From positions 212,609 through 276,608 of the forward strand of contig JANQSD010000001.1 of the NCBI GenBank assembly GCA_028284225.1: DNA of 64,000 nucleotides. Direction: 5' to 3'. Positions 1 to 13,943 of the stretch are shown piece by piece. Source of the stretch: Arenicellales bacterium. Lineage in GTDB: Bacteria; Pseudomonadota; Gammaproteobacteria; Arenicellales; JAHEKD01. The notes under the pieces were generated by a model. The model was given only the letters and a program-made list of their open reading frames with translations, searched no databases and had not been told where the DNA came from. The position numbers and the translations under genes are program-made. The stretch's first letter is position 1, and each line of letters opens with the position of its first letter.

Positions 1-6
1 CTTACT

Positions 7-60: not shown

Positions 61-480
61 TTGGCTTCTAGATATAAAATGCCTGAAATCCCAGATTGTC
101 ACTATAGAGTCAGTGTTAAAGCCTTAATATTAGATGACCAAAGACGATTTCTATTGGTCAAGGACATTACCGGTAAATGGGAACTCCCTGGCGGAGGGCT
201 TGAACAAGGTGAATCTGTACAACAAGGTTTACGACGCGAAATCAAAGAGGAAATGGGACTTGAGTTGAATTATATTGCCGATGCTCCAGAGTATTTTTTC
301 ACGGTATTCGATAGTGATACAAATGAATGGATTTGTAATGCAGTCTACAAAACTCAGGTTAAAGATTTTAATGTCACACTAACGGATGAATGCCAGGAAT
401 ATAGGTTCTTTGATAAATTTATTGCTGCGAAAGAACCGTTATTTGATAATGTGACCAAGTTTCTAGCCTTATATTCATAG
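61..480 (+). CDS. NUDIX hydrolase
   Basis: The 139-aa ORF carries the Nudix box GGGLEQGESVQQGLRREIKEEMG (GX5EX7REUXEEXGU). The start is uncertain (TTG 61 or ATG 79), and no clear SD precedes either. Confidence 0.85.
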   Translation: MASRYKMPEIPDCHYRVSVKALILDDQRRFLLVKDITGKWELPGGGLEQGESVQQGLRREIKEEMGLELNYIADAPEYFFTVFDSDTNEWICNAVYKTQVKDFNVTLTDECQEYRFFDKFIAAKEPLFDNVTKFLALYS

Positions 481-505
481 AATTTTTATATTGGTTGAAA
501 GAAAC

Positions 506-540
506 GTACCTCTTGACGAACGTACGTAAAAGCGTACAAT
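506..540 (+). promoter_or_regulatory. Putative yefM-yoeB promoter with GTAC-core operator repeats
   Basis: TTGACG (513-518), a 16-nt spacer and TACAAT (535-540) form a promoter-like pair. Three GTAC cores (cgtacc, acgtacgt, gcgtaca) overlap it. The E. coli yefM-yoeB operator palindromes have TGTACA cores. Confidence 0.45.
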
Positions 541-566
541 ATAAATATACCAAGTTTATTTGATTA

Positions 567-809
567 ATGACTTCAATTACAGCTACAGAAGCACGAGCGA
601 ATTTATATCGTTTGATTGATGAGGTGAGTGAATCTCATCAACCACTTATGATCTCCGGTAAACGGAATAAAGCCGTACTTATTTCTGATGAAGATTGGTC
701 AGCGATACAGGAAACCTTATTTTTATTGTCTATTCCGGGCATGCGCGAATCTTTACGCGAGGGTATGGAAACCCCGGTTGATGAATGCAGTCGGGAAGTA
801 GAGTGGTGA
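567..809 (+). CDS. yefM: Type II antitoxin, Phd/YefM family
   Basis: The 80-aa product has TATEARANLYRLIDEV at the N-terminus and DEDWSAIQETLFLLSIPG, both typical of YefM. Its stop overlaps the start of the downstream toxin. Confidence 0.85.
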   Translation: MTSITATEARANLYRLIDEVSESHQPLMISGKRNKAVLISDEDWSAIQETLFLLSIPGMRESLREGMETPVDECSREVEW

Positions 810-1069
810 CCTGGAAAATCGTTTTCACAAAACACGCACAAAAAGACGCAAGAAAGTTAGCAACTAGTGGGTTAAAAGCTAAAACCCAAGTCTTGTTGGA
901 ATTATTACAAGATGATCCTTTTATAAAGCCACCTCCTTTTGAGAAGCTGGTTGGTGATCTTAAAGGAGCCTATTCACGTCGAATTAATATCCAACATCGA
1001 TTGGTTTATCAAGTTTTAATTGACCAAAGGACTGTAAAAATATTAAGAATGTGGACGCACTATGAGTGA
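803..1069 (+). CDS. yoeB: Type II toxin, YoeB/Txe (RelE-fold mRNA interferase) family
   Basis: The ORF opens at 785, but GTG 803/806 overlapping the antitoxin stop is the likelier start. GAYSRRINIQHRLVYQV...ILRMWTHYE parallels E. coli YoeB FWSRRITEEHRLVY...RYHY. Confidence 0.8.
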   Translation: MVTWKIVFTKHAQKDARKLATSGLKAKTQVLLELLQDDPFIKPPPFEKLVGDLKGAYSRRINIQHRLVYQVLIDQRTVKILRMWTHYE

Positions 1070-1464
1070 CTCCGTTGCTTGTTGTTCAACGTTTCTAGCC
1101 TTTTAATTATCTTTTGTTCAACTTTTTTCATGTCGGCCAGTGTTCGTTTAATGTCTTTTTGCTTTTCCAGCAATTCTTTACGGTGAGTGTTAATAACGTT
1201 TAGGACGTATTCAAGCTGGATTTTTTTATCAGGTGTGGAGTCGTAGAGTTTAAGGGTTTCCTTGATTTCTGCCAGGGAAAAGCCCAATCGCTTGCCGCGT
1301 AATATTAGTTGTAATCTAACCCGGTCACGGTCGTTGTAAATTCTGACGGTGTTTTTACGTTCAGGAGAGAGTAGCCCCTGATCCTCGTAGAATCGAATAG
1401 TTCGTGTAGTTACATCAAAATGCTTGGCAAGATCGGATATGGAATAGGTCACGTTTTTTTTCAT
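1060..1464 (-). CDS. liuR: MerR-family transcriptional regulator, LiuR-like (leucine/isovalerate catabolism)
   Basis: The N-terminal HTH YSISDLAKHFDVTTRTIRFYEDQGLL is the MerR signature, followed by a C-terminal coiled coil. The gene is divergently placed next to the liu operon. Confidence 0.75.
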   Translation of the reverse strand: MKKNVTYSISDLAKHFDVTTRTIRFYEDQGLLSPERKNTVRIYNDRDRVRLQLILRGKRLGFSLAEIKETLKLYDSTPDKKIQLEYVLNVINTHRKELLEKQKDIKRTLADMKKVEQKIIKRLETLNNKQRSHS

Positions 1465-1558
1465 TAAAAGATTCCACTCAGCGTCATTGTGGAAAATACG
1501 AAGTGTTTATCCGCAATCTCCACGGCAGTTTCATGTATTTTTACTCGTTGGCTAGACA

Positions 1559-1587
1559 TTGACGTTAACGTTAAGGGTAGTTAAAAT
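1559..1587 (+). promoter_or_regulatory. Putative liu operon promoter with MerR-type palindromic operator
   Basis: The imperfect palindrome TTGACGTTAACGTTAA (1559-1574) overlaps a -35-like TTGACG. A TAAAAT -10-like hexamer sits at 1582-1587, giving a 17-nt spacer. The site lies between liuR and icmF. Confidence 0.45.
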
Positions 1588-1637
1588 CAAAGCATAAACC
1601 ACACAGCTTAATTTGTCGAGTATTACACTAGATTGAT

Positions 1638-4600
1638 ATGGACATGCCCGCTCAAGCATCTCAGGATGTTAGTTCAAAAATTCGTTTTGTTACGGCTGCC
1701 AGTTTGTTTGACGGACATGACGCAGCGATCAATATTATGCGTCGAATTTTACAGTCTCTTGGTGTTGAGGTCATTCACCTGGGTCATAACCGCTCGGTAG
1801 CAGAAATCGTCGATGCTGCGTTGCAGGAAGATGTAAATGGTATCGCTATCAGTTCATATCAGGGTGGTCATGTTGAATATTTAAAATACATGGTTGATAT
1901 GCTCAAGCAAAATGATGGCGAGCAGATTAAAATTTTTGCTGGTGGTGGCGGCGTCATTATCCCTGAGGAAATTAAACTATTACAAGACTATGGTGTGACC
2001 CGTATTTATTCCCCTGAAGATGGTCTGGAAATGGGGCTTAAAGGTATGATTCAGAATACCATCAAACTAAGCCAATTTGATCGTGGATGTGATGGCCAAC
2101 AGATTATTGATCAGGTCAAAGCCGGAAGCTGGCGGGCATTGGCGAAGTTGATCACTGCGATTGAGAATTACAAAGCATCCAGTCATCAACTCTTAAGCGT
2201 TAACGATCAGGTGGCTGATTTAGGCAAACCAATCCCCGTGCTCGGTATTACCGGAACGGGTGGTGCCGGTAAGTCTTCGTTGACAGATGAAGTTATTTTA
2301 CGCTTCCGCATGGACTCGGGTGATAGTCTGAAAATAGCGATCATTGCGGTTGATCCCACGCGCCGCAAAACCGGTGGTGCGTTGTTAGGGGATCGAATCC
2401 GCATGAATGCTATTAATCATCCTAATATTTTTATGCGTTCAGTAGCAACTCGTGATTCGGTTAGCGAAGTCCCCGCTAATGTTCCGGATATGATTAATGC
2501 TTGCAAGCTGGCTGGAGCGGATCTGGTCATTCTTGAAACACCCGGCATCGGTCAGGGGGATACGGCTATTTCGTCTATGGTTGATTGCTCCCTGTATGTC
2601 ATGACACCTGAGTTTGGTGCGCAGACACAGCTGGAGAAAATCGATATGCTTGATTTTGCCGATGTGGTGGCCATCAACAAATTCGACCGCAACGGCGCAG
2701 AAGATGCCTATCGTGATGTATGTAAACAGGTACAGCGTAATCGCGAAGCGTTTGCACAAGCAGCAGAGCAAATGCCTGTATTTGGCACTATCGCTTCACG
2801 CTTTAATGATGATGGTATTACCGCCTTGTATCAGGAACTAAAGGCTCAATTGAAAACACATGGTCTTATCCTTGATAAGGGTGCTTTAGTACAGGCAGAT
2901 ACTCGATTTTCTACTGAGCAAAATCAAATAATCCCGACCAAGCGCCGCCGTTATTTGGCCGAAATTGCAGAAACTGTAAGATCTTATAAATCCAGAGCTA
3001 TACACCAGGCAGATATAGCCAGAGAGTGTCAACAGCTTTCCCAGACCAAGCGTATGTTAGCTGAATCGGCGGGTAAACATGTTGCTGAAATCGATGATCT
3101 GCTCAAGCTTAAGACCGACGGTTTGGATGACGCTGCTCAAACGTTACTTTCAGATTGGGATGATTTAAAACAACGTTATAGCGGTGAAGAGCAGGTTATA
3201 AAAATCCGTGATAAAGAAATCGTTAACAAATTAAAGCGCGAAACCTTGTCAGGTAATTCAATTCCAAGAGTGGCTTTGCCTGATTACAAAGATCATGGTG
3301 AGCGGCTTAAGTGGCTAATGTTGGAAAATGTGCCAGGAGAATTTCCCTATACGGCAGGTGTGTTTCCATTTAAGCGAGCCGGTGAAGATCCGACTCGAAT
3401 GTTTGCCGGAGAAGGCGATGCATTTAGAACAAATAAACGTTTTAAGGCTTTATCTGAACATTCCCAGGCTAAACGTTTATCCACGGCCTTTGATTCGGTC
3501 ACATTGTACGGCTGCGATCCGGATGAACGACCCGATATATATGGCAAAGTGGGCAATTCAGGCGTATCTATTGCGACCCTGGATGATATGAAAGTGCTCT
3601 ATGATGGGTTTGATCTATGTGATCCGGCTACCTCTGTGTCAATGACTATAAATGGACCGGCACCGATTATTCTGGCCATGTTTTTGAACACAGCAATTGC
3701 TCAGCGTGTCGATAAAGCTAATGCTGACAAGCATGCATCGTTGAGTGCAACCGAACTTGCACAGGTTCAAGCACAGGCGCTGATCGACGTGCGTGGCACC
3801 GTGCAGGCGGATATTCTCAAAGAAGATCAGGGACAGAATACCTGTATATTCTCCACCGAGTTTTCATTGAAATTAATGGGTGATATTCAGGAATATTTTG
3901 TCGCCAATCAAGTACGGAATTTTTATTCTGTTTCAATATCCGGTTACCACATTGCCGAAGCCGGTGCGAATCCAATCAGTCAGCTTGCTTTCACTTTAGC
4001 GAATGGTTTTACTTATGTGGAAGCTTATCTGGCCAGGGGTATGGATATTAATGACTTTGCACCTAATTTATCGTTTTTCTTTAGCAATGGGATGTGTCCT
4101 GAATACTCGGTTATTGGTCGGGTAGCTCGTCGAATCTGGGCAGTTACAATGCGAGATAAATACGGTGCTAATTCGCGTTCCCAAAAACTCAAATATCATA
4201 TCCAGACATCAGGCCGCTCCTTACATGCACAGGAAATGAGTTTTAATGATATTCGCACGACGTTGCAGGCGCTCATAGCAGTTTATGATCACTGCAATAG
4301 TCTACACACCAATGCTTATGATGAGGCGATTACAACACCAACCGGAGAGTCTGTTCGCCGGGCGCTTGCCATTCAGCTCATCATCAATAACGAATGGGGA
4401 TTAGCAATGAACGAGAACCCTAACCAGGGTAGTTTCATTATTGACGAACTTACAGAGCTGGTTGAAGAAGCGGTGTTGTCAGAGTTTGAACGATTGTCAG
4501 AGCGTGGTGGTGTTCTGGGTGCAATGGAAACAGGCTACCAGCGTGGCAAGATTCAGGACGAATCCATGCATTATGAACATCGCAAACATGATGGCAGCTT

Positions 4601-4892
4601 GCCGATTATAGGTGTGAATACATTTTTGAACCCTGAGAGTGATGATGAGCGTATAGAGCTGGAGTTAGCTCGCTCTACCGAACAAGAAAAACAAAATCAG
4701 ATCAAACGGTTACGCGATTTTCATGACCGTTATCAAGCTGAATCAGCACAAGCCCTTGATAAAGTTAAGCAAGCCGCACTTAACGGTGAAAATATTTTTG
4801 CCGAGTTGATGCAAGCAGTAAAAACCTGTTCACTGGGGCAGATCTCTGAAGTGTTGTATCAAGTTGGTGGGCAATACAGACGCAACACATGA
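1638..4892 (+). CDS. icmF: Fused isobutyryl-CoA mutase IcmF (B12-binding domain + MeaB-type GTPase + mutase barrel)
   Basis: The 1084-aa product has an N-terminal cobalamin-binding domain ([16 protein letters not shown]) and a central G domain with P-loop [12 protein letters not shown]. The C-terminal acyl-CoA mutase substrate domain contains [14 protein letters not shown]. This tripartite fusion defines IcmF. Confidence 0.9.
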
Positions 4893-4982
4893 GAATAATG
4901 TTATGTGTTACTTTGCGTTGTTCAGATTCCGGATCAAATCCGGTGAGCAGATAGAGGAATTTTTGTATTGAAATTAAAATGT

Positions 4983-5009
4983 GAGATCCTTCGGCTGGCT
5001 CAGGATGAC
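4983..5009. repeat. REP-like element, subfamily 2, inverted orientation (gagatccttcg...ctcaggatgac)
   Basis: This is the reverse complement of the cgtcatcctgag...gaaggatctcc elements at 9082-9116 and 9147-9175. The hbd ATG (5005) lies inside it. Confidence 0.55.
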
Positions 5010-5880
5010 AGCTAATATTAAAAAAATTGCTGTAATTGGCGCCGGCACCATGGGCAACGGCATTGCTCAGGTGTTTGCCGCGTCTGGCTTTGATGTGGCG
5101 ATGCAGGATATATCTGATAATCGTCTTAAATCAGGTGTTGCAGCAATTGAAAGTAGTCTTAATCGGCTTATAAAAAAGGATTTAATCGGGGAGGACGATA
5201 AGTCTGCGATTTTGAAAAGAATCAGGACAACAACGCAGATTAAGGATTTAAGCCAGGTTGATCTGGTAGTCGAGGCAGCTACTGAAAACCTGGATATAAA
5301 ACTTAACATTTTTCAAAGCCTTGATGAGGTTTGTCAGCCTGCTACTGTGCTTGCCTCCAATACTTCCTCGATTTCATTAACAAAAATTGCTGCAGCAACC
5401 AATCGCCCTGAAAAGGTGATCGGTATGCATTTCATGAATCCAGTACCTGTGATGCAACTTATAGAAATAATTCGTGCATTGCAAACCAGTGACGAAACCT
5501 ATGAGGTGATTCACCAAGTGTCACTTGGGCTCGGTAAAACACCCGTTGAAGTGAACGACAGCCCCGGGTTTGTTTCAAATCGAATTTTAGTGCCGATGAT
5601 TAATGAAGCCATATTTGCATTGTATGAGGGAATAGCCACACCCGAGGCAATCGACGAAGTCATGAAATTGGGTATGAATCATCCTATGGGTCCTCTGACA
5701 TTAGCTGACCTGATAGGGCTTGATGTATGTTTATCGGTTATGAAAGTCTTGCATGAAGAATTTAGAGATTCCAAATTCAGACCTTGTCCATTACTCGTCA
5801 AAATGGTGAATGCAGGTTATTTGGGTCGTAAGACCGGCAAAGGATTTTATGACTATTCTGCAAGTAAAGATGTTGCTTAA
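5005..5880 (+). CDS. hbd: 3-hydroxybutyryl-CoA / 3-hydroxyacyl-CoA dehydrogenase
   Basis: The Rossmann motif [15 protein letters not shown] is present, with later [10 protein letters not shown] and NHPMGPL motifs. The ORF opens at GTG 4981, but ATG 5005 ([14 protein letters not shown]) fits the family N-terminus. Confidence 0.85.
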
Positions 5881-5890
5881 GTCTTTAATT

Positions 5891-5930
5891 CGTCATTCCG
5901 GAAATTTCGAAGAAATTATCCGGAATCCAG
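5891..5930. repeat. REP-like palindromic element, subfamily 1
   Basis: The sequence is cgtcattccggaaatttcgaagaaattatccggaatccag. It has the same termini as 7-34 with a different internal stem-loop. Confidence 0.55.
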
Positions 5931-6021
5931 ATTCATTTAGTGTTTTCTGGAAGCTGTATAGTATTTTGGATTTTCGGCATGGCGATATCAGAGTTTTTAA
6001 TGGATTACAAAGGGACTATTT

Positions 6022-7185
6022 ATGTTTAACGCCGGAATGAATTTTGCTTTGGGCCAAGAGATAGAGGCCTTGCGAGATATGGTGCACCGTTTTTCGCAAG
6101 AAAAGATTGCACCGCGCGCTGAGGAGATTGATTCAACCAACACATTTGCTGGTGATCTATGGCCTGAGCTGGGTGCGCTTGGTTTGCTCGGCGTGACGGC
6201 CAATCCTGACTATGGTGGTTCCGGAATGGGCTATTTGGCTCATGTGGTTGCCATGGAGGAAATAAGCCGGGCATCGGCGTCCATAGGCTTGTCATATGGT
6301 GCGCATTCAAATTTATGTGTGAATCAGTTAAACAGAAATGGGAGTGAGGAACAAAAACAGAAGTATTTGCCTAAGTTATGTTCAGGAGAGCATGTTGGCG
6401 CTTTGGCGATGTCAGAGCCAGGTTCCGGCTCAGATGTGGTGTCAATGAAGTTAACTGCAATCAAGACTAACGAAGGTTATGTGTTAAACGGCAATAAAAT
6501 GTGGATCACTAATGGTCCCGATGCCAATGTTCTAATCGTTTATGCCAAGACCGATCCCGATGCCGGCTCCAAGGGCATTACTGCATTTCTAATCGAAAAA
6601 GAATTCGCCGGATTCTCAACCGCACAAAAGCTGGACAAGCTGGGCATGCGCGGCTCAAATACTTGTGAACTGGTTTTTGAAGATTGTCTGGTACCGCAAG
6701 AGAATGTACTCGGCTCTGTAGGAAAAGGTGTTAATGTTTTAATGTCGGGGCTTGATTATGAGCGGGTAACGCTTGCAGGCGGGCCATTAGGTATTATGCG
6801 GGCATGCATGGATGTGGTGGTGCCATACGTGCATGAGCGCAAGCAGTTTGATAAACCTATAGGTACTTTTCAACTTATGCAAGGTAAGTTAGCGGATATG
6901 TACACGACCATGAATGCCTGCCGAGCGTATGTTTATGCTGTAGCTGCAGCGTGTGATCGTGGTGAAACCACTCGTAAAGATGCAGCAGGTTGTATTCTCT
7001 ATGCCGCTGAAAAAGCGACCCAACTTGCTCTTGAATCGATTCAAGCATTGGGAGGCAGTGGTTATATTAACGAATATCCGACCGGTCGCTTGTTGCGAGA
7101 TGCCAAGCTTTATGAAATCGGTGCGGGTACAAGCGAGATCAGGCGCATGTTGATTGGCAGGGAATTGTTTGAGGAAACGAAGTGA
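6022..7185 (+). CDS. liuA: Isovaleryl-CoA dehydrogenase
   Basis: The 387-aa acyl-CoA dehydrogenase has [36 protein letters not shown] and a C-terminal [19 protein letters not shown]. It sits immediately upstream of the methylcrotonyl-CoA carboxylase genes. Confidence 0.9.
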
Positions 7186-7267
7186 TTTCGTATTTCAATT
7201 TTCCATATTTACTTGCCCCGTGCTTGTCACGGGCTCTCCTTAAATTCGCTCATATCCATGTCATTGA

Positions 7268-7290
7268 GATCCCGGCACAAGGCCGGGACA
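7268..7290. repeat. REP-like GC hairpin (gatcccggc-acaa-gccgggaca)
   Basis: The hairpin resembles gatcccgcg-acgggg-cgcgggaca at 35568-35591. It lies in the 256-bp liuA-liuB gap. Confidence 0.5.
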
Positions 7291-7326
7291 AAACAGGCCA
7301 TCAAGCTAGTGACTTAGTAATAGACT

Positions 7327-7364
7327 CGTCATGCCGGAAGCCTGAAAGGCTGTCCGGTATCCAG
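7327..7364. repeat. REP-like palindromic element, subfamily 1
   Basis: The sequence is cgtcatgccggaagcctgaaaggctgtccggtatccag. Confidence 0.55.
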
Positions 7365-7441
7365 GCAGCCTTAAAGGGAACTGGATTGCGGACATCGCTA
7401 CGCGATTCCAGAATAACGGTGATTACGAGGATAAAAACAAA

Positions 7442-9049
7442 ATGCCAATAATTTCCTCATCTATTTCACCAAACTCAGATGAATTCAAAGCGAATAAAAA
7501 AGCACTGCAGGATTCACTGGATCAGATTAAGACTGCAGCAGAGCAGGCTATGGCAGGCGGTGGCGAAAAGGCGATTGAGCGTCATAAGTCTAAAGGCAAA
7601 ATTTTGCCGCGTGAACGGGTATCCCGATTACTGGACCCGGGCTCACCCTTTTTGGAGGTCGGTCTATTCGCAGCACATGATATGTATGACAATGCCTCAC
7701 CCGCGGCAGGTATGATTTGCGGAATCGGTCGGGTTAGCGGACAGGAATGTATGATTGTTTGTAATGATGCAACAGTCAAAGGCGGTACCTATTACCCAAT
7801 GACGGTGAAAAAGCATTTGCGAGCCCAGGAAATAGCGAATGCAAATCGTTTGCCTTGTGTTTATTTAGTCGACTCCGGCGGAGCTAATTTGCCTAACCAG
7901 GACGAAGTCTTTCCAGACAGAGATCACTTTGGTCGGATATTTTTTAATCAAGCCAATATGTCAGCCAAGGGTATTCCGCAGATTTCCGTGGTCATGGGTT
8001 CGTGTACAGCAGGTGGTGCTTATGTACCGGCAATGTCTGATGAGAGCATAATAGTTAAAGAGCAGGGTACAATTTTTTTAGGCGGTCCACCGCTAGTCAA
8101 AGCAGCAACAGGCGAAGTAGTTTCGGCTGAAGATCTTGGTGGAGCTGATGTGCATACACGATTATCGGGTGTTGCAGATCAGATGGCTAACGATGACAGT
8201 CATGCGTTAGCTCTGGCCAGGCAAATCGTTGCTAATTTAAATCGACGTAAGCCTGAGGTTGTAACGTTACAAGCTGGCGAGTCACCTGACTATGACCCGG
8301 AAGAAATTTTAGGAATTGTTCCGGCTGATCAGCGTATCCCCTATGATGTGCGTGAAATCATAGCCCGGATTGTAGATGGCTCACGCCTGGACGAGTTTAA
8401 AAACCGCTACGGTAATACTCTGGTATGTGGTTTTGCCCATGTACATGGCATCCCCATCGGTATCATAGCCAATAATGGTGTGTTGTTTTCAGAATCGGCA
8501 CTTAAAGGCGCGCACTTTGTTCAGCTTTGTTGTCAACGCAAAATACCACTGGTTTTTTTGCAGAATATCACCGGCTTTATGGTCGGGCAGAAGTATGAGT
8601 CCAGCGGTATTGCCAAGGATGGTGCAAAACTGGTTACAGCAGTGGCAACTGCCCAGGTGCCTAAAATAACCCTGTTAATCGGCAACAGTTTTGGCGCGGG
8701 TAACTACGGCATGTGTGGTCGTGCTTATGCGCCAAGATTCTTGTGGACCTGGCCGAACAGTCTTATTGCAGTGATGGGGGGTGAACAAGCGGCAGGCGTG
8801 TTGGCAACCGTTAAGAAGGATGCAATCGAACGTAAAGGAGGGCAATGGAGCGATCAAGAAGAAAAAGACTTTAAACAGCCAATCATCGATCAATTCGAAT
8901 TTCAAAGTCATCCACTTTTTGCTTCAGCACGGTTGTGGGATGATGGTGTCATCGATCCACGAAAATCGAGGCAAGTACTAGCACTGTCGCTATCAGCCAC
9001 ACTCAATACACCAATTCCAGACACCCACTTCGGTGTCTTTAGAATGTGA
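7442..9049 (+). CDS. liuB: Methylcrotonyl-CoA carboxylase, carboxyltransferase (beta) subunit
   Basis: The 535-aa product belongs to the acyl-CoA carboxylase beta family ([59 protein letters not shown]). Its position in the liu operon agrees. Confidence 0.9.
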
Positions 9050-9081
9050 CCATGCAATGAATAGGAACTATTCAGAGCATG

Positions 9082-9116
9082 GTCATCCTAAGTCGCGCAG
9101 CGACGCAAGGATCTCC
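9082..9116. repeat. REP-like element, subfamily 2 (gtcatcct...aaggatctcc)
   Basis: The sequence gtcatcctaagtcgcgcagcgacgcaaggatctcc contains the internal hairpin gtcgcg-cag-cgacgc. Confidence 0.55.
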
Positions 9117-9146
9117 TTAAAGCCCCACCGATCTCAAACATGGCCA

Positions 9147-9175
9147 CGTCATCCTGAGCAAAGCGAAGGATCTCC
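9147..9175. repeat. REP-like element, subfamily 2
   Basis: The sequence is cgtcatcctgagcaaagcgaaggatctcc. It is the second copy in the 227-bp liuB-liuD gap. Confidence 0.55.
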
Positions 9176-9276
9176 AAAAACTGACTCCGCTGTTTACCAT
9201 AAAAGCAATATAAAAGAGTTTCCTCGACAAGCTTATCCTCGAATAGGGACTCGGAATGACTCCGGAGTTGCGAACC

Positions 9277-11268
9277 ATGTTTAACAAAATCCTAATCGCT
9301 AATCGTGGAGAAATTGCCTGCCGGGTTATTACAACGGCGAAACGCATGGGAATTAAATGTGTGGCCGTCTATTCTGAAGCAGACAAATCGGCTCTGCATG
9401 TAGAGCTGGCGGATGAGGCCTATTGTTTAGGTCCAGCGCCGGTTTCCAAAAGTTATTTACGCATTGACAAAATTATTGAAGCTGTCGGTAAAAGCGGCGC
9501 TGAAGCGGTTCATCCAGGATATGGGTTTTTATCGGAAAACCCTGAATTCGTCCAGGTCTGTGAGAATGTAGGACGTGTATTTATCGGGCCACCCGTTGAT
9601 GCAATCGAGGCTATGGGATTAAAAGATGCCGCCAAAGTTTTAATGGAACAATCGGGGGTGCCGGTTGTGCCTGGCTATCACGGTGATAATCAGGCAGCAG
9701 AATTTTTGCAGGATCAGGCTGATATTATTGGTTACCCGGTATTGATTAAAGCCCGCGCAGGTGGTGGCGGCAAAGGTATGCGTTTAGTTCAAACAGCTGC
9801 AGAATTTAATCATGCCCTGGAAAGTGCTCAGCGTGAAGCTCAATCCAGTTTTGGTGATGCTCATGTGATTATTGAAAAGTTTGTATCCAGTCCTCGCCAC
9901 ATAGAGGTGCAGGTTTTTGCTGACAAGCAGGGTAATACAGTGCATCTTTTCGAACGTGATTGTTCCATGCAGCGACGTCATCAAAAAGTCATTGAAGAAG
10001 CACCAGCTCCTGGAATGAGTGAGGCATTACGCAATACAATGGGAGAGGCCGCTGTGCGGGCGGCAAAGGCTGTGGGTTACGTCGGTGCGGGAACAGTTGA
10101 GTTCATTGTTGATTCTTCAGCAGGGTTAAAGCCTGACGGATTTTATTTTATGGAAATGAATACCCGGCTTCAGGTTGAGCATCCGGTCACTGAAGCAATA
10201 ACCGGATTAGATTTAGTTGAATGGCAACTGCGAGTTGCTGCAGATGAGCCTCTGCCCCGGTCGCAGGCTGAGCTGGTGATTAATGGCCATTCATTTGAAG
10301 CACGCATTTATGCTGAAGATGCGCAAAATAATTTTATGCCGTCTATTGGTCGTCTTGATTATTTATCATTGCCGTTTGACCAGGCCAGAGTTGATTCGGG
10401 CATACGACAGGGTGATGAAATCACCCCATTTTATGATCCTATGATCAGCAAGATAATAGTTCATGGCGATTCGCGTAAGGCAGCATTGGCTCGATTACAA
10501 AATGCCTTAGCAAATGCCCACATAGTCGGTTGCAAAACTAATATTAATTTTTTGGATCGGTTATCAAAACAGTCTGATTTTGTCTCAGGACAGGTAAATA
10601 CAGGTTTAATTGATCAACATTTCAATATGCTGACGGAACCGTTGTCGCCAGATGAGCAGACTATTGCATTAGCTGCTTTGTCAGCTTTGGGTTATTTTAA
10701 CGAACCTATAAGTAATGATCCGTGGCAGACACTAATAGGTTGGCGACATTTTAGCGCAGCCAGGCAGTATACCCGGTTGCAGTGGGGAGTAGAGCACCGT
10801 GATATTACCTTGATGTCACATGCCGACGGTTGTTTGGAAATAATATTCGATGATGCTGTGGTATTGGCGAAATTATTAAGAAGCGATGACAACAGGGTAA
10901 CCGTTGATTTTGACGGCCAAATAGTGAAATCCACAATTGTTAAATGTGAATCATCTGTTACTGTGTTTAAAGGTCTTGTTCACTATCAGTTTGAATTGCC
11001 TGATTATGCAACCAATTCTGATGCAGTTCAGAGCACGGATAAAAACCTCTTGGCACCTATGCCTGGATTAGTGACATCGGTCAATGTTACTCAAGGACAG
11101 CACGTAGAGCAGGGTGAATTGCTGATTGTTATGGAAGCCATGAAAATGGAACATAGTCTGCGTGCATCACTAACGGGTGTTATTGAACAGTTAAGGGTTG
11201 CTAATAACGATCAGGTGCAGGAAGGTGCATTGCTATTGACTATCGGTGAGTCTCAAACAGATGGTTGA
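9277..11268 (+). CDS. liuD: Methylcrotonyl-CoA carboxylase, biotin-containing (alpha) subunit
   Basis: The N-terminus is a biotin carboxylase ATP-grasp (MFNKILIANRGEIACRV, GGGGKGMR). The C-terminal biotinyl domain carries EAMKMEH. ATG 9277 is preferred over the ORF opening at 9256. Confidence 0.9.
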   Translation: MFNKILIANRGEIACRVITTAKRMGIKCVAVYSEADKSALHVELADEAYCLGPAPVSKSYLRIDKIIEAVGKSGAEAVHPGYGFLSENPEFVQVCENVGRVFIGPPVDAIEAMGLKDAAKVLMEQSGVPVVPGYHGDNQAAEFLQDQADIIGYPVLIKARAGGGGKGMRLVQTAAEFNHALESAQREAQSSFGDAHVIIEKFVSSPRHIEVQVFADKQGNTVHLFERDCSMQRRHQKVIEEAPAPGMSEALRNTMGEAAVRAAKAVGYVGAGTVEFIVDSSAGLKPDGFYFMEMNTRLQVEHPVTEAITGLDLVEWQLRVAADEPLPRSQAELVINGHSFEARIYAEDAQNNFMPSIGRLDYLSLPFDQARVDSGIRQGDEITPFYDPMISKIIVHGDSRKAALARLQNALANAHIVGCKTNINFLDRLSKQSDFVSGQVNTGLIDQHFNMLTEPLSPDEQTIALAALSALGYFNEPISNDPWQTLIGWRHFSAARQYTRLQWGVEHRDITLMSHADGCLEIIFDDAVVLAKLLRSDDNRVTVDFDGQIVKSTIVKCESSVTVFKGLVHYQFELPDYATNSDAVQSTDKNLLAPMPGLVTSVNVTQGQHVEQGELLIVMEAMKMEHSLRASLTGVIEQLRVANNDQVQEGALLLTIGESQTDG

Positions 11269-12175
11269 GAGAGTAAGCATTGTTGAAGTTGGCCCCAGGG
11301 ATGGTTTGCAAAATGAAAAGCAGATTATCCCTGCAGCAGATAAGATTAAACTGATTAATTTGTTATCAGAATGTGGATTCAGCACTATCGAAGCAACCAG
11401 CTTTGTTTCACCGCGCTGGGTGCCGCAATTGGCAGATGCTGGTGAGGTAATGAGCGGAATTTCAAGAAAGCAGGGAATTAGCTATGCGGTATTAACGCCT
11501 AACCTCAAAGGTTATAAATTAGCAAAAGCTGCCAAAGCAGATGAAGTAGCGATTTTTGCAGCAGCTTCTGAAACGTTTAGCCAGAAGAATATTAATTGTT
11601 CCATTGAACAAAGCATTGAACGATTTGAAGCAATTATCAGGCAAGCTAAAATAGATCAAATGCCGGTTAGAGGATATATTTCTTGTGTCGTTAATTGCCC
11701 GTATGAAGGTCAGGTAAGTCCTCGAGCTGTTGTTGACGTGGCCGCCAGGCTTTTTCAGTTGGGCTGCTATGAAGTATCGCTGGGTGACACTACCGGCAAG
11801 GGAACACCCGAGTCGATAGCGGCCATGCTTGATGCAGTACTCGATATTGCAGAACCGCCACGTTTTGCTGGTCATTATCACGATACCAATAGCCGTGCGC
11901 TAGAGAATATTGAAACCAGCCTTGAAAAAGGTATTCGTCGGTTTGATTCTGCAATCGGCGGTTTGGGCGGTTGTCCCTATGCACCTGGCGCCAGAGGTAA
12001 TGTGGCAACCACACAGGTTATACAGTTGTTGCACAGGCAGGGTTATAAAACGGGAATAGATGAAGCTAAATTAGACCGAGCTTTGGATTTTGTGAATCTG
12101 GTGATGAGGAGGTTAGGGGGTGCTCTTGGAGATCTCGGCACTAGGCCGGGACAGGCTGGGCCGGGGTATGTGTGA
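11261..12175 (+). CDS. liuE: Hydroxymethylglutaryl-CoA lyase
   Basis: VEVGPRDGLQNE, HYHDTNSRALENI and GGLGGCPYAPGARGN are HMGL-family motifs. ATG 11261 overlaps the liuD stop and is preceded by GGTGAG. Confidence 0.9.
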   Translation: MVERVSIVEVGPRDGLQNEKQIIPAADKIKLINLLSECGFSTIEATSFVSPRWVPQLADAGEVMSGISRKQGISYAVLTPNLKGYKLAKAAKADEVAIFAAASETFSQKNINCSIEQSIERFEAIIRQAKIDQMPVRGYISCVVNCPYEGQVSPRAVVDVAARLFQLGCYEVSLGDTTGKGTPESIAAMLDAVLDIAEPPRFAGHYHDTNSRALENIETSLEKGIRRFDSAIGGLGGCPYAPGARGNVATTQVIQLLHRQGYKTGIDEAKLDRALDFVNLVMRRLGGALGDLGTRPGQAGPGYV

Positions 12176-12960
12176 TGTCTAACTTTGAAACTATCCGATT
12201 AACTGCAAAAGATAGCGTTGCAAAAATAATGTTGAATCGGGCAGATAAGCATAATGCAATTAATGCATTAATGATCAGAGAGTTGAGACAAGCGGCAGAT
12301 CAGGTTGCAAATGATAATAGTGTCAGAGTGGTTGTACTTACGGCTGCGGGTAAAAGTTTTTGTGCAGGTGGTGATCTTAACTGGATGAAGCAACAGGCAA
12401 GTAAAGATCGCGCAGGAAAAATCAGTGAGTCGTCAGAGTTGGCCAGGATGTTACGTGATTTAGACGAGTTACCGAAACCTTTAATCGCCTGTGTACAGGG
12501 TCCGGCTTATGGTGGCGGTATTGGAATGATTTGTGTCTGTGATATTGCTGTTGCCTCTGCGGCAGCAAAATTTGCTTTAACTGAAACCCGTCTGGGTCTT
12601 ATTCCGGCTACCATCGGTCCTTATGTAATTAGGCGTTTAGGTGAAGCCAATGCCAGGCAGGTGTTCATGAATAGTAAAGTCTTTGATGCCGAAGCTGCAC
12701 TAAAACTGGGTTTAGTATCAACTCTGGCCCAACATGACGAACTGGATGAGGTTGTGCAGTCTGAGGTCGATGCATTTTTGAATTGCGCTCCAGGTGCGGT
12801 GGCAGATGCAAAATCACTATGCCTGGAATTATCAAGAAACCAGTCGATCAACCAGCTTGACTATACCGCTAATAAACTGGCTGATCGCTGGGAGACACTA
12901 GAAGCCCGGCAAGGCATTGATGCGTTTTTTAACCGTGAAAAGCCGCCATGGACAAAATAG
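12175..12960 (+). CDS. liuC: Methylglutaconyl-CoA hydratase (enoyl-CoA hydratase/crotonase family)
   Basis: The crotonase fold is indicated by FCAGGDL and GPAYGGGIGM. The TGATG start-stop overlap with liuE indicates co-translation. The specific substrate is inferred from operon context. Confidence 0.8.
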   Translation: MSNFETIRLTAKDSVAKIMLNRADKHNAINALMIRELRQAADQVANDNSVRVVVLTAAGKSFCAGGDLNWMKQQASKDRAGKISESSELARMLRDLDELPKPLIACVQGPAYGGGIGMICVCDIAVASAAAKFALTETRLGLIPATIGPYVIRRLGEANARQVFMNSKVFDAEAALKLGLVSTLAQHDELDEVVQSEVDAFLNCAPGAVADAKSLCLELSRNQSINQLDYTANKLADRWETLEARQGIDAFFNREKPPWTK

Positions 12961-13415
12961 ATTATAAAATCCTTGAGATTTTGCAAACTGACCCAGAGGC
13001 CAATATCACCGAAATTGGCAGGCGGGTAGGATTAAGTCATACACCTTGCTGGCGACGTATTAAGCAAATGCAAGATCAGGGAGTGATTAAACAACGTGCT
13101 GTTATATTAAACCCTGAAGCATTACATTTAGATGTTTGTGTGTTTTGCTTTGTTAAGCTTGAAAATCATCACGAGCAGACATTGCTAGACTTTGAGCAAG
13201 CCGTGTTGAAATTACCGGATGTGCTGCAATGCTACTTGGTCACCGGTGATTATGATTATTGCCTGCGTGTGGTGACATCAGGAATACGCGATTATGAAAA
13301 AGTGCTTAAAAGGGAGCTAACCAATTTACCTCATGTCGCGTTTATTAATACAAGTTTTACCTTGCGAGAAGTTAAAAACACAACCCGATTGCCTTTAACT
13401 AAAATTATTTCTTAG
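12948..13415 (+). CDS. Lrp/AsnC-family transcriptional regulator
   Basis: The product has an N-terminal AsnC-type HTH (MDKIDYKILEILQTD...ITEIGRRVGLSHTPCWRRIKQM) and a C-terminal RAM-like domain. The gene overlaps the liuC 3' end by 13 nt. Confidence 0.85.
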   Translation: MDKIDYKILEILQTDPEANITEIGRRVGLSHTPCWRRIKQMQDQGVIKQRAVILNPEALHLDVCVFCFVKLENHHEQTLLDFEQAVLKLPDVLQCYLVTGDYDYCLRVVTSGIRDYEKVLKRELTNLPHVAFINTSFTLREVKNTTRLPLTKIIS

Positions 13416-13490
13416 CACAAAAATAATTTGCAGCTATTAAAGAAATAAGGTACATCTGCATGCAGACATAATAAAGACGTAATCGGTTCA

Positions 13491-13943
13491 ATGAGCGAAA
13501 AACTTCAAATGTTAGGTTGGCGTGAGTGGGTTTCATTGCCAGATTTGGGCATTAGACGAATTAAATGCAAGGTAGACACGGGTGCCAGAACTTCGGCCTT
13601 ACACACGTACTTTATTGAACCTGATTCACAAACAAATATCGTCCGTTTCGGTATCCACCCCATCCAGAATCGTACCGATATTGAAGTCATTTGTGAGGCT
13701 AATATTCTTGATTACAGAGAGGTTAGCGATTCTGGAGGGCATAAGGAGAAGCGCTATGTGATCGAATCGACAATTAAAATCGGAAAATATGAGTGGCCGA
13801 TAGAGATTAATTTGGCTGGCCGGGATACAATGCGGTTTCGAATGTTGCTGGGGCGTACTGCTATCAATCATCGATTCACAGTTGATCCGGCATGTGCGTA
13901 TTTAGTGGGCAAGCCAAGACGCAAGAAGACATTAGTGAGATAG
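13491..13943 (+). CDS. RimK-associated retropepsin-like protease (so-called ATP-dependent zinc protease family)
   Basis: The 150-aa product has [13 protein letters not shown]...[15 protein letters not shown], typical of the small protein encoded upstream of rimK. Confidence 0.7.

What the first reader, a model, noticed from the sequence alone, without database searches (positions are those of the whole stretch)
1060..13415. Fused B12-dependent mutase IcmF and hbd embedded at the head of the LiuR-controlled leucine/isovalerate operon
The gene order is liuR (divergent), then icmF, hbd, liuA, liuB, liuD, liuE, liuC. Canonical liu clusters contain only liuA to liuE.

IcmF interconverts isobutyryl-CoA and n-butyryl-CoA. 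It has also been reported to interconvert pivalyl-CoA and isovaleryl-CoA, and isovaleryl-CoA is the substrate of the next-but-one gene, liuA. Hbd would serve the butyryl-CoA branch.

The arrangement therefore suggests a single regulon that funnels valine-derived or pivalate-type C4/C5 acyl-CoAs together with leucine into acetoacetate and acetyl-CoA.
Basis: partly seen in the sequence, partly recalled or inferred. Interest (0 to 1): 0.55.

Follow-up and report, generated by a model that had tools for sequence, protein, structure and literature searches.

The report
B12 mutase fused onto leucine-breakdown operon
An uncultured gammaproteobacterium has placed the vitamin-B12-dependent enzyme IcmF and a 3-hydroxybutyryl-CoA dehydrogenase at the front of its leucine-degradation operon, behind one LiuR-type operator; the order is peculiar to this lineage, but LiuR-type control of IcmF is widespread and points to a B12-dependent side route for valine breakdown.

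Summary
The genes are real and in the stated order: a divergent MerR/LiuR-like regulator, then icmF, hbd, liuA, liuB, liuD, liuE and liuC.

A 16-bp palindrome, TTGACGTTAACGTTAA (1559-1574), overlaps the -35 of the icmF promoter. It is the only box of this kind in the 64 kb, so any LiuR control of the leucine genes must pass through the icmF promoter.

Two close relatives keep the same order, one with 7-54 bp gaps downstream of hbd. None of 80 other icmF loci does. The same box sits upstream of icmF in 38 of 66 evaluable non-actinobacterial loci (22/38 beta, 11/18 gamma) and in 0 of 16 actinobacterial loci. It also precedes liuA elsewhere.

A published regulon table already lists "mcm" and 3-hydroxybutyryl-CoA dehydrogenase as LiuR targets. 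Co-regulation is therefore largely catalogued, probably under a wrong enzyme name.

icmF-hbd adjacency recurs even in actinobacteria, and the enzyme keeps the Phe/Gln isobutyryl-CoA signature. This favours a C4 route from valine (isobutyryl-CoA to butyryl-CoA to acetoacetyl-CoA) over the pivalyl/isovaleryl idea.

Verdict: an ordinary pathway in a lineage-specific operon fusion. Interest is moderate to low.

The parts
1060..1464 (-). liuR-like MerR-family transcriptional regulator, divergent from icmF
   Evidence: Pfam MerR_1, MerR-DNA-bind and MerR. Homologues 44-85% identical sit in the same divergent position next to icmF in 11 loci. In L004, L034, L040, L057 and L084 they directly precede liuA.
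1559..1574 (.). Candidate LiuR operator, TTGACGTTAACGTTAA, a 16-bp near-palindrome
   Evidence: It is the only good match in 64 kb, and the core ACGTNNACGT occurs once. It is the only conserved block in an alignment of icmF upstream regions from 8 genomes. Across the 84 loci there are 39 such sites in 26 kb upstream of icmF against 10 in 1.58 Mb elsewhere.
1559..1587 (+). Sigma-70-like promoter for icmF (TTGACG, 17 bp, TAAAAT) with its -35 and spacer inside the operator
   Evidence: It is the best-scoring promoter-like site in 900-14200, matching 10 of 12 positions. This is a consensus match only and has not been shown to function.
1638..4892 (+). icmF: fused B12-binding domain, MeaB-type GTPase and isobutyryl-CoA mutase
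   Evidence: NCBIfam NF045497 scores 1882 bits against a cutoff of 1500. Pfam finds B12-binding, MeaB and MM_CoA_mutase. It scores 1649 bits against 4xc6. Phe589 (TRMFAGEG) and Gln733 (DQGQNTC) correspond to C. metallidurans Phe598 and Gln742 and are invariant in 20 relatives.
4893..5004 (+). icmF-hbd spacer with stable hairpins (repeat-like palindromes)
   Evidence: RNA fold of -30.4 kcal/mol, z = -2.5, with no T-run.
5005..5880 (+). hbd: NAD-dependent (S)-3-hydroxybutyryl-CoA dehydrogenase (the ORF is open from the GTG at 4981)
   Evidence: PRK05808 scores 474 bits against a cutoff of 408, and the family match begins at ORF residue 12. Pfam finds 3HCDH_N and 3HCDH. PDB hits 6aa8, 4kug and 4pzc score 343-359 bits.
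5881..6021 (+). hbd-liuA spacer with a long hairpin
   Evidence: -38.5 kcal/mol, z = -3.5. The same gap is 17 bp in L081 and 53 bp in L082.
6022..7185 (+). liuA: isovaleryl-CoA dehydrogenase
   Evidence: 693 and 679 bits to bacterial IVD structures and 553 bits to human IVD, against 319 bits for the next acyl-CoA dehydrogenase class.
7186..7441 (+). liuA-liuB spacer with hairpins
   Evidence: z = -3.7 for 7300-7441. The same gap is 42 bp in L082.
7442..9049 (+). liuB: 3-methylcrotonyl-CoA carboxylase beta (carboxyltransferase) subunit
   Evidence: 838 bits to P. aeruginosa MCC beta 3u9r, against 479 bits to geranyl-CoA carboxylase beta 5ikl.
9050..9255 (+). liuB-liuD spacer with two copies of a GTCATCCT...AGGATCTCC palindromic element
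   Evidence: Sequence; fold z = -2.8; motif matches at 9081 and 9147, and at 4999 on the minus strand. The same gap is 6 bp in L082.
9256..11268 (+). liuD: 3-methylcrotonyl-CoA carboxylase alpha (biotin carboxylase plus BCCP) subunit
   Evidence: Pfam finds Biotin_carb_N and C, CPSase_L_D2, BT_MCC_alpha and Biotin_lipoyl. The best PDB hits are MCC alpha subunits at 608-631 bits.
11246..12175 (+). liuE: HMG-CoA lyase (the true start may lie a few codons downstream)
   Evidence: PRK05692 scores 444 bits against a cutoff of 246. 1ydn scores 387 bits.
12172..12960 (+). liuC: enoyl-CoA hydratase of the methylglutaconyl-/isohexenylglutaconyl-CoA hydratase type
   Evidence: PRK07468 scores 365 bits against a cutoff of 350. 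The PDB hits include AtuE 4zu2. It is 43% identical to the hydratase inside the Sedimenticola liu operon and 29% identical to the one following icmF-hbd.
12948..13415 (+).
   Evidence: Pfam finds HTH_AsnC-type, HTH_24 and AsnC_trans_reg. Lrp PRK11169 scores 108 bits, below its cutoff. The gene is conserved at the same position in L081 (92% identity) and L082 (77%).

Best explanation
This is one LiuR-type-controlled catabolic operon, liuR <> icmF-hbd-liuA-liuB-liuD-liuE-liuC-lrp. It arose in one uncultured gammaproteobacterial lineage by joining two modules that are usually separate, and often divergent, members of the same regulon.

Module 1 is the classical leucine pathway: isovaleryl-CoA to 3-methylcrotonyl-CoA to 3-methylglutaconyl-CoA to HMG-CoA, then to acetoacetate plus acetyl-CoA.

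Module 2 is icmF-hbd. [quoted passage not shown] The butyryl-CoA is then beta-oxidised, with Hbd making acetoacetyl-CoA, so valine carbon joins leucine carbon at the acetoacetate/acetoacetyl-CoA node. The dehydrogenase, crotonase and thiolase that this route needs are encoded elsewhere in this genome.

The MerR-family LiuR homologue binds the palindrome that overlaps the -35 and spacer of the icmF promoter. The literature predicts LiuR to be a repressor. It would therefore gate the whole transcript and probably its own divergent gene. Hairpin-forming repeat insertions in the spacers may modulate the relative levels of downstream genes.

Shown here: the gene identities, the single conserved operator, synteny, and the wide distribution of the operator upstream of icmF.

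Inferred: co-transcription, repression, the direction of flux, and the C4 substrate.
For: Gene identities.

Operator:
- Single operator and promoter.
- The operator is the only conserved block in aligned icmF upstream regions.
- There are 39 sites in 26 kb upstream of icmF against 10 in 1.58 Mb elsewhere. It is present in 22 of 38 beta, 11 of 18 gamma and 0 of 16 actinobacterial loci.
- The same box lies upstream of liuA in L084 and L057, and upstream of a branched-chain-type ABC transporter and acyl-CoA synthetase operon in L084.

Synteny:
- The same gene order is found in relatives L081 and L082. In L082 the gaps from hbd to liuC are only 6-53 bp, and lrp overlaps liuC.
- icmF-hbd-ECH sits divergent from liuR-liuA...liuD in Sedimenticola.
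- liuR <> icmF-hbd-ECH occurs without liu genes in L083.
- hbd lies directly after icmF in 2 beta and 4 actinobacterial loci.

Enzyme and literature:
- The Phe/Gln ICM signature is invariant.
- Published LiuR regulon tables list 'mcm' and 3-hydroxybutyryl-CoA dehydrogenases (paaH, hbdA) as targets and describe LiuR as a MerR-family repressor of Ile/Leu/Val utilisation.
Against: - There are no expression data.
- The spacers of 141-256 bp with strong hairpins could hide internal promoters or partial terminators.
- The cluster lacks a butyryl-CoA dehydrogenase, a crotonase and a thiolase, which are present near icmF in Sedimenticola. The C4 route is therefore incomplete within the window.
- No BCKDH, canonical valine-pathway, cobalamin-supply or adenosyltransferase genes were found among the larger ORFs scanned in the 64 kb (about 40), so need and cofactor supply could not be assessed.
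- Orthology of the regulator to the LiuR regulators defined in Shewanella and Pseudomonas rests on synteny and motif, not on a direct comparison.
- 28 of the 66 evaluable non-actinobacterial icmF loci lack the box.
Confidence: 0.6

Rival explanations
1. C5 reading, the first reader's second idea: IcmF sits next to the liu genes because it converts pivalyl-CoA into isovaleryl-CoA, the substrate of LiuA. The operon would then be a pivalate/isovalerate/leucine funnel.
For: IcmF is reported to interconvert isovaleryl-CoA and pivalyl-CoA (stated in PMC10481361, citing Cracan & Banerjee 2012). liuA lies two genes downstream.
Against: - The window enzyme keeps Phe589 and Gln733. As I recall from Kitanishi et al. 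2015 (not held, not re-read), wild-type IcmF has low C5 efficiency and rapid inactivation, the Phe-to-Ala change is what raises it, and dedicated two-subunit PCM enzymes exist.
- The conserved partner of icmF across phyla is hbd or crotonase, which are C4 beta-oxidation enzymes, not liuA.
- In all 6 of the 80 surveyed loci with liuA within 10 kb, liuA is on the other strand.
- LiuR regulons cover Ile, Leu and Val generally.
Confidence: 0.1
2. Reverse-direction reading: IcmF converts n-butyryl-CoA, from butyrate or even-chain fatty acids, into isobutyryl-CoA. That would feed the valine-type pathway, branched-chain fatty-acid primers, or valine-related anaplerosis.
For: The reaction is reversible. 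In R. rubrum, butyrate growth up-regulates the LiuR/ILV regulon (PMC7238569).
Against: R. rubrum itself has no isobutyryl-CoA mutase. Co-location with hbd, and with a crotonase in relatives, means butyryl-CoA is being consumed by beta-oxidation in the same unit, which makes export to isobutyryl-CoA redundant.
Confidence: 0.1
3. Neighbours only: a rearrangement placed icmF-hbd upstream of liuA-C, but they are transcribed separately. liuA-C would use promoters in the long spacers and another regulator, for example the Lrp-family protein.
For: The spacers are long (141, 256 and 206 bp) and hold stable hairpins. An Lrp/AsnC regulator is encoded at the 3' end.
Against: - No second LiuR-type box exists anywhere in the window.
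- No promoter-like site was found on the plus strand in those spacers, and no terminator-like site there.
- In relative L082 the same genes are 6-53 bp apart, so the long spacers are secondary insertions.
- The order has been kept while IcmF diverged to 79% identity.
Confidence: 0.12
4. Hbd is not a partner of IcmF. It would serve another branched-chain step, such as 2-methyl-3-hydroxybutyryl-CoA dehydrogenation in isoleucine breakdown, or acetoacetyl-CoA/PHB metabolism downstream of leucine.
For: LiuR regulon tables list several 3-hydroxyacyl-CoA dehydrogenases under branched-chain amino acid degradation: ivdG in 31 genomes, paaH in 17 and hbdA in 6.
Against: hbd immediately follows icmF in actinobacteria, which lack the LiuR box and any liu linkage. 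It also does so in betaproteobacteria. This argues for a direct functional pairing with IcmF.
Confidence: 0.08

Closest known systems
liuRABCDE leucine/isovalerate utilisation cluster and the LiuR (MerR-family) regulon of Proteobacteria (Pseudomonas and Shewanella types; Kazakov et al. 2009 as cited in PMC3223726 and PMC5343134)
   Same: It has IVD, both MCC subunits, a LiuC-type hydratase, HMG-CoA lyase and an adjacent MerR-family regulator. It has an ACGT-rich palindromic operator in the promoter.
   Different: - The regulator is divergent rather than first in the operon.
- The gene order is A-B-D-E-C.
- icmF and hbd lead the operon and carry the only operator.
- An Lrp/AsnC regulator is fused to the 3' end.
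- There are no liuFG (CoA transferase) genes in the cluster.
IcmF of Cupriavidus metallidurans and Geobacillus kaustophilus (fused isobutyryl-CoA mutase/GTPase; PDB 4xc6)
   Same: It has the same three-domain architecture and aligns over its full length at 1649 bits. It has the same Phe/Gln specificity pair, P-loop and NKxD motifs.
   Different: Only the genomic setting differs. The one Cupriavidus locus sampled (C. gilardii, L019) has hbd about 0.7 kb downstream but no LiuR box and no liu genes within reach.
Sedimenticola thiotaurini locus (CP011412; L084): liuR-liuA-thiolase-ACAD-DSBA-liuB-liuC-liuD divergent from icmF-hbd-ECH
   Same: It has the same gene families, the same boxes in the shared control region, and icmF-hbd as a unit.
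   Different: - It has two divergent operons instead of one.
- It includes a thiolase, a second acyl-CoA dehydrogenase and a crotonase-like hydratase, all of which the window cluster lacks.
- It has separate boxes for liuA and icmF.
Pivalyl-CoA mutase (PCM) of Xanthobacter autotrophicus (Kitanishi et al. 2015; from memory)
   Same: It is an AdoCbl-dependent acyl-CoA mutase that would link directly to isovaleryl-CoA and LiuA.
   Different: PCM is a two-subunit enzyme without isobutyryl-CoA mutase activity. The window protein is a canonical fused IcmF that retains the Phe which limits C5 activity.

Membership tests
IcmF (fused isobutyryl-CoA mutase/GTPase) | One polypeptide with an N-terminal B12-binding domain, a central MeaB-type G domain and a C-terminal acyl-CoA mutase substrate domain | tested here: met
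   Pfam finds PF02310 at 16-111, PF03308 at 168-403 and PF01642 at 560-1077. NCBIfam equivalog NF045497 scores 1882 bits against a cutoff of 1500 over residues 14-1083.
IcmF (fused isobutyryl-CoA mutase/GTPase) | The Phe/Gln specificity pair of isobutyryl-CoA mutases, in place of the Tyr/Arg of methylmalonyl-CoA mutase | tested here: met
   TRMF589AGEG and DQGQ733NTC align with C. metallidurans Phe598 and Gln742 in 4xc6, after allowing for the 20-residue tag offset. Both are invariant in alignment A1. PMC7238569 quotes the Tyr/Arg pair for MCM.
IcmF (fused isobutyryl-CoA mutase/GTPase) | GTPase motifs (P-loop GxxGxGKS and NKxD) | tested here: met
   [12 protein letters not shown] and AINKFD are seen in the alignment with 4xc6.
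IcmF (fused isobutyryl-CoA mutase/GTPase) | AdoCbl-dependent isobutyryl-CoA/n-butyryl-CoA isomerase activity | not testable with these tools
   This needs an enzyme assay.
Pivalyl-CoA mutase (PCM) | Separate large and small subunits, and an active site lacking the bulky Phe | tested here: not met
   The window protein has the fused IcmF architecture and retains the Phe. The PCM features are recalled from Kitanishi et al. 2015 and were not re-read.
LiuR regulon / liu operon | A MerR-family regulator encoded next to liu genes | tested here: met
   Pfam finds MerR domains. Homologues directly precede liuA in L004, L034, L040, L057 and L084.
LiuR regulon / liu operon | A conserved palindromic operator shared by liu genes and other branched-chain catabolic operons | tested here: met
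   The box lies at 1559-1574. The same box is upstream of liuA in L084 and L057 and upstream of icmF in 38 loci. Sites are roughly 200-fold denser upstream of icmF than elsewhere in the loci. The published consensus itself could not be read, because Kazakov et al. 2009 is not held.
LiuR regulon / liu operon | Direct orthology to the LiuR regulators defined in the literature (S. oneidensis SO1898, P. aeruginosa PA2016), and DNA binding | not tested
Binding needs EMSA or ChIP.
Leucine catabolic pathway (LiuA-E) | Isovaleryl-CoA dehydrogenase | tested here: met
   693 bits to IVD 4o5m and 553 bits to human IVD, against 319 bits for the next class.
Leucine catabolic pathway (LiuA-E) | 3-Methylcrotonyl-CoA carboxylase alpha and beta subunits, as distinct from geranyl- or propionyl-CoA carboxylase | tested here: met
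   The beta subunit scores 838 bits to P. aeruginosa MCC, though a PDB chain deposited as propionyl-CoA carboxylase beta (9tps) scores nearly as high at 804 bits; geranyl-CoA carboxylase scores 479 bits. The alpha subunit carries the BT_MCC_alpha domain and hits MCC alpha best at 631 bits, with a chain of the same entry (9tps, deposited only as 'biotin carboxylase') at 609 bits. The separation from propionyl-CoA carboxylase is therefore narrower than from geranyl-CoA carboxylase.
Leucine catabolic pathway (LiuA-E) | 3-Methylglutaconyl-CoA hydratase | tested here: inconclusive
   It is a crotonase-fold protein. It passes PRK07468, a generic family. It resembles AtuE 4zu2 and the hydratase inside the Sedimenticola liu operon (43% identity) more than the icmF-linked hydratase (29%). 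No specific LiuC model was available.
Leucine catabolic pathway (LiuA-E) | HMG-CoA lyase | tested here: met
   PRK05692 scores 444 bits against a cutoff of 246. 1ydn scores 387 bits.
Cobalamin-riboswitch-controlled B12 enzyme genes | A cobalamin riboswitch in the leader | tested here: not met
   No Rfam family reaches its gathering score in 1-14000.

The most novel reading that the evidence does not exclude
IcmF is a core, conserved member of the LiuR branched-chain amino acid catabolic regulon across Beta- and Gammaproteobacteria. Regulon databases appear to hide it under the label 'methylmalonyl-CoA mutase'. [quoted passage not shown] This route yields two acetyl-CoA and avoids methacrylyl-CoA and propionyl-CoA. 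In the window's lineage it has become hard-wired to leucine catabolism in one transcript. That would give the biochemically well-studied IcmF, whose physiological role is, as far as I know, untested, a defined and testable role.
Probability: 0.45. Interest if true: 0.6.

Novelty: new variant of a known kind. Interest (0 to 1): 0.38.

Why it matters
IcmF is one of the best-studied B12 enzymes structurally and mechanistically. As far as I could find in the held literature, no paper ties it to a defined catabolic regulon: no paper combined isobutyryl-CoA mutase with methylcrotonyl-CoA carboxylase, and the only paper naming both LiuR and an acyl-CoA mutase concluded that its organism has no isobutyryl-CoA mutase.

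The window, together with the survey made here, gives a concrete and testable placement. icmF, usually with hbd, would be a LiuR-box target for branched-chain acyl-CoA catabolism, most plausibly a B12-dependent valine shunt.

If this is right, three things follow:
- It would correct a likely mislabel ('mcm') in regulon databases.
- It would add a valine route to pathway-prediction tools.
- It would predict cobalamin-dependent valine or isobutyrate growth phenotypes in many environmental Beta- and Gammaproteobacteria.

The particular fused gene order seen here is a minor, lineage-specific variation.

Tried and rejected
1. Primary papers. Reading the key papers failed because none is held: Kazakov 2009 (PMC2612455), Jost 2015 (PMC4646380), Cracan & Banerjee 2012 (PMC3281689) and Cracan 2010 (PMC2804213). 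What I say about them is from memory or from citing papers.
2. Literature searches. No held paper contains both isobutyryl-CoA mutase and methylcrotonyl-CoA carboxylase. The only held paper with both LiuR and an acyl-CoA mutase (PMC7238569) found none in its organism. A beta-proteobacterial RB-TnSeq preprint has nothing on IcmF or valine.
3. Naming the organism. Cluster look-ups gave no names. ProS homologues place it only as an uncultured gammaproteobacterium, about 64% identical to Arenicellales and unclassified MAGs.
4. A second LiuR box in front of liuA, liuB or liuD. None was found. The weak match at 39179 lacks the ACGT cores and was dismissed as chance.
5. Intrinsic terminators between the genes. 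None lies on the plus strand in the spacers, and the overall count equals the shuffled expectation.
6. A cobalamin riboswitch. None was found.
7. Supporting genes elsewhere in the window. About 30 of the larger ORFs beyond 13.9 kb were scanned for cobalamin supply, BCKDH or canonical valine genes. Only housekeeping and unrelated genes turned up.
8. A de-novo neighbour census of icmF loci by ORF clustering. It was only partly useful, because spurious antisense ORFs displaced real genes in GC-rich loci. I relied on tblastn instead.
9. The REP-like motif CGTCATCCTGAG. It is not significantly over-represented window-wide: 9 matches against 3.25 expected, with 1 of 100 shuffles reaching 9. I describe the spacer elements only as local hairpins.

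Full report
**1. What is in the sequence**

The interval 1060-13415 contains nine ORFs, not eight. Family and structure-sequence searches identify them as follows.

- 1060-1464 (-): a MerR-family regulator.
- 1638-4892 (+): IcmF. The NCBIfam equivalog scores 1882 bits against a cutoff of 1500. It has B12-binding, MeaB and mutase domains and scores 1649 bits against C. metallidurans IcmF 4xc6.
- Hbd. PRK05808 scores 474 bits against a cutoff of 408, and the PDB hits are clostridial and R. eutropha 3-hydroxybutyryl-CoA dehydrogenases. The probable start is the ATG at 5005 rather than the GTG at 4981.
- 6022-7185: isovaleryl-CoA dehydrogenase, 693 bits to 4o5m against 319 bits for the next acyl-CoA dehydrogenase class.
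- 7442-9049: methylcrotonyl-CoA carboxylase beta, 838 bits to 3u9r against 479 bits for geranyl-CoA carboxylase.
- 9256-11268: methylcrotonyl-CoA carboxylase alpha, with the BT_MCC_alpha domain.
- 11246-12175: HMG-CoA lyase.
- 12172-12960: a LiuC/AtuE-like enoyl-CoA hydratase.
- 12948-13415: an Lrp/AsnC-family regulator overlapping the hydratase gene by 13 bp.

Its end coordinate belongs to the unlisted regulator.

**2. Control region**

The 173-bp liuR/icmF intergenic region holds the best promoter-like site of the whole cluster: TTGACG, 17 bp, TAAAAT at 1559-1587.

Overlapping its -35 and spacer is the near-palindrome TTGACGTTAACGTTAA at 1559-1574. This is the only good match in 64 kb; one further 3-mismatch hit at 39179 lacks the ACGT cores. 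None of 100 shuffles gave two matches. The core ACGTNNACGT occurs once in the window.

No such box precedes liuA, liuB or liuD. No cobalamin riboswitch or other Rfam element is present in 1-14000.

If a LiuR-type regulator controls the leucine genes of this organism, it can therefore only do so from the icmF promoter.

**3. The spacers**

The gaps between icmF and hbd, hbd and liuA, liuA and liuB, and liuB and liuD are 112, 141, 256 and 206 bp. They fold into stable hairpins (z between -2.5 and -3.7) without T-runs. The liuB-liuD spacer has two copies of a GTCATCCT...AGGATCTCC palindrome.

The terminator scan finds nothing on the plus strand in these spacers, and its overall count equals the shuffled expectation.

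In relative L082 the same junctions downstream of hbd are 53, 42, 6, 21 and 26 bp, and lrp overlaps liuC. The long spacers are therefore secondary insertions into what was a tight operon.

**4. Close relatives**

The window comes from an uncultured gammaproteobacterium. Its ProS is at most about 64% identical to any named lineage, the nearest being Arenicellales and unclassified MAGs.

| Locus | IcmF identity | Arrangement |
|---|---|---|
| L081 (5.05-Mb contig) | 88% | Identical order, from liuR through lrp |
| L082 (4.03-Mb contig) | 79% | Identical order, from liuR through lrp |
| L083 | 73% | liuR <> icmF-hbd-ECH, with no liu genes |
| L084, Sedimenticola thiotaurini | 73% | liuR-liuA-thiolase-ACAD-DSBA-liuB-liuC-liuD on one strand, icmF-hbd-ECH divergently on the other |

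The window's hydratase is 43% identical to the Sedimenticola liu-operon hydratase and only 29% identical to the icmF-linked one. It is therefore LiuC-like, and the crotonase of the icmF module is missing here.

**5. Wider survey**

A scan of one genome per species with an IcmF alignment returned 80 loci from Gamma-, Beta- and Alphaproteobacteria, Actinobacteria and others.

- tblastn with the window's proteins found a true liuA (68-77% identity) within 10 kb of icmF in only 6 of the 80 loci, always on the opposite strand.
- No locus showed the window's co-directional fusion.
- A divergent LiuR homologue lies directly upstream of icmF in 7 of the 80 loci. An eighth locus, L057, has one about 5.7 kb upstream, next to liuA.
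- hbd lies within 1.5 kb downstream of icmF in two beta and four actinobacterial loci.

The box TTKACGTWWACGTMAA was scored with up to 2 mismatches. It is often extended to a third ACGT half-site 6 bp further on.

| Group | Evaluable loci | Box within 300 bp upstream of icmF |
|---|---|---|
| Betaproteobacteria | 38 | 22 |
| Gammaproteobacteria | 18 | 11 |
| Other or unclassified | 10 | 5 |
| Actinobacteria | 16 | 0 |

In total there are 39 sites in 26 kb upstream of icmF against 10 sites in the remaining 1.58 Mb. Several of those ten lie upstream of liuA (L084, L057) or of a branched-chain-type ABC transporter and acyl-CoA synthetase operon (L084).

In an alignment of eight icmF upstream regions the box is the only conserved block. 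This is a phylogenetic footprint of a regulator shared by liu genes and icmF, which fits LiuR.

**6. What was already known**

LiuR is described as a MerR-family repressor of Ile/Leu/Val utilisation across Proteobacteria (PMC3223726).

The regulon compilation of Leyn et al. 2016 (PMC5343134, Table S3) lists these among LiuR targets:
- 'mcm, methylmalonyl-CoA mutase', in 9 genomes of 2 taxa.
- The 3-hydroxybutyryl-CoA dehydrogenases paaH (17 genomes, 4 taxa) and hbdA (6 genomes).

IcmF has been widely mis-annotated as methylmalonyl-CoA mutase (PMC7764203; several database names). Since about 58% of betaproteobacterial icmF genes carry the box, those 'mcm' entries are probably IcmF. I could not verify this.

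No paper in the held library contains both isobutyryl-CoA mutase and methylcrotonyl-CoA carboxylase. The only one naming both LiuR and an acyl-CoA mutase (PMC7238569) concluded that its organism has no isobutyryl-CoA mutase.

**7. How it most likely works**

The evidence best fits one LiuR-gated transcript that combines two modules of the branched-chain regulon.

The leucine module is standard.

The icmF-hbd module is most simply a C4 shunt. Valine-derived isobutyryl-CoA is isomerised to n-butyryl-CoA and beta-oxidised via 3-hydroxybutyryl-CoA to acetoacetyl-CoA. It thereby converges with the acetoacetate released by HMG-CoA lyase.

Support for the C4 reading:
- icmF-hbd(-crotonase) adjacency is conserved across phyla.
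- Phe589 and Gln733 are invariant. They are equivalent to Phe598 and Gln742 of the crystallised enzyme and form the pair that distinguishes isobutyryl-CoA mutases from Tyr/Arg methylmalonyl-CoA mutases.
- The substrate-domain motifs shown in the alignment match C. metallidurans IcmF except for a few conservative changes.

The promoter has a normal 17-bp spacer and the box covers the -35. This fits repression rather than MerR-style activation, but that is inference.

The co-transcribed Lrp-family regulator may extend the response, for example to keto-acid dehydrogenase genes. This is untested.

**8. The pivalyl/isovaleryl idea**

IcmF does have a reported isovaleryl-/pivalyl-CoA activity. As I recall from Cracan & Banerjee 2012 and Kitanishi et al. 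2015 (not held), that activity is slow and inactivating, is limited by the very Phe that this protein retains, and is carried out efficiently by a distinct two-subunit mutase.

Proximity to liuA is peculiar to this lineage. Elsewhere liuA is in a separate, oppositely oriented operon.

I therefore rate the C5 reading at about 0.1. It cannot be excluded without kinetics.

**9. Weak points**

- There are no expression or binding data.
- The butyryl-CoA dehydrogenase, crotonase and thiolase needed for the C4 route are not in the cluster.
- No cobalamin-supply, BCKDH or canonical valine genes were found among the larger ORFs scanned in the window (about 40). Neither the need for the shunt nor cofactor availability could be judged.
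- Orthology of the regulator to the LiuR regulators defined in the literature rests on synteny and motif.

**10. Verdict**

This is a lineage-specific operon fusion within a known regulon, so it counts as a new variant of a known kind. Its main value is as a pointer to a probable physiological role for IcmF that the literature I could reach has not spelled out.

Noticed in passing
window 12948-13415 (+): An Lrp/AsnC-family regulator gene overlaps the liuC stop codon by 13 bp. It is conserved in the same place in L081 (92% identity) and L082 (77%). It was absent from the other 80 icmF loci at the thresholds used, apart from one weak 26% match in L068. It may form a regulatory cascade from the liu operon, but its target is unknown.
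   Followed up: partly
window 4893-5004, 5881-6021, 7186-7441, 9050-9255: The intergenic spacers of the operon are inflated by hairpin-forming palindromic inserts, for example GTCATCCTaAG...AAGGATCTCC twice at 9081-9176 and in reverse at 4983-5010. Fold z-scores are -2.5 to -3.7 and there are no T-runs. The same junctions downstream of hbd are 6-53 bp in relative L082. The 12-mer is not significantly enriched window-wide.
   Followed up: partly
window 567-809 (+) and 785-1069 (+): A small overlapping gene pair looks like a YefM/Phd antitoxin (80 aa) and a YoeB/ParE-type toxin (94 aa). The toxin gene's 3' end overlaps the 3' end of liuR by 10 bp, convergently. The equivalent pair in L081 carries the Pfam domains PhdYeFM_antitox and ParE_toxin/YoeB_toxin. 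Relative L082 lacks the pair.
   Followed up: partly
L081 1-8202; L082 1-2140: In the two close relatives, the region upstream of the NUDIX gene lies just outside the window's 5' end. In L081 it encodes a branched-chain-type ABC transporter, an acyl-CoA synthetase, a family-III CoA transferase, a 4HBT thioesterase and an iron alcohol dehydrogenase. L082 shows only the last three within the fetched flank. This may be a further acyl-CoA-related cluster next to the operon.
   Followed up: no
L001-L004, L034, L052, L083, L084 (upstream of icmF): In many genomes the operator has three ACGT half-sites spaced 6 bp apart (TTGACGTTTACGTAAACGT), which gives two overlapping 16-bp palindromes. In the window lineage the third half-site has decayed to AAGGGT or AAGGAT.
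   Followed up: partly
L047 and L034: Two loci carry a proteobacterial-type IcmF (67-68% identity) with a LiuR box, and in L034 also liuR and liuA. Their records are titled 'Synechococcus sp. UW140' and 'uncultured Nitrospiraceae'. These contigs are probably mis-binned in the MAGs.
   Followed up: no
window 13491-15916 (+): Directly after lrp, with no terminator-like site in between, come a RimB-like retropepsin peptidase, RimK (ribosomal protein S6 glutamate ligase) and an AstE/AspA-family deacylase. The trio is shared with L081 but not with L082.
   Followed up: no
window 47438-54096 (+) and 55270-56577 (-): A sensor kinase and a sigma-54 (NtrC/AtoC-like) response regulator are followed by a DctP/DctM TRAP transporter. 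A family-III CoA transferase lies nearby on the other strand. This may be an organic-acid uptake and activation unit. No LiuR box is present.
   Followed up: no
window 25647-27817 (-): A Rieske-type oxygenase distantly related to the glycine betaine monooxygenase GbcA (120 bits, far below the cutoff) sits next to a GcvA/choline-sulfate-type LysR regulator.
   Followed up: no
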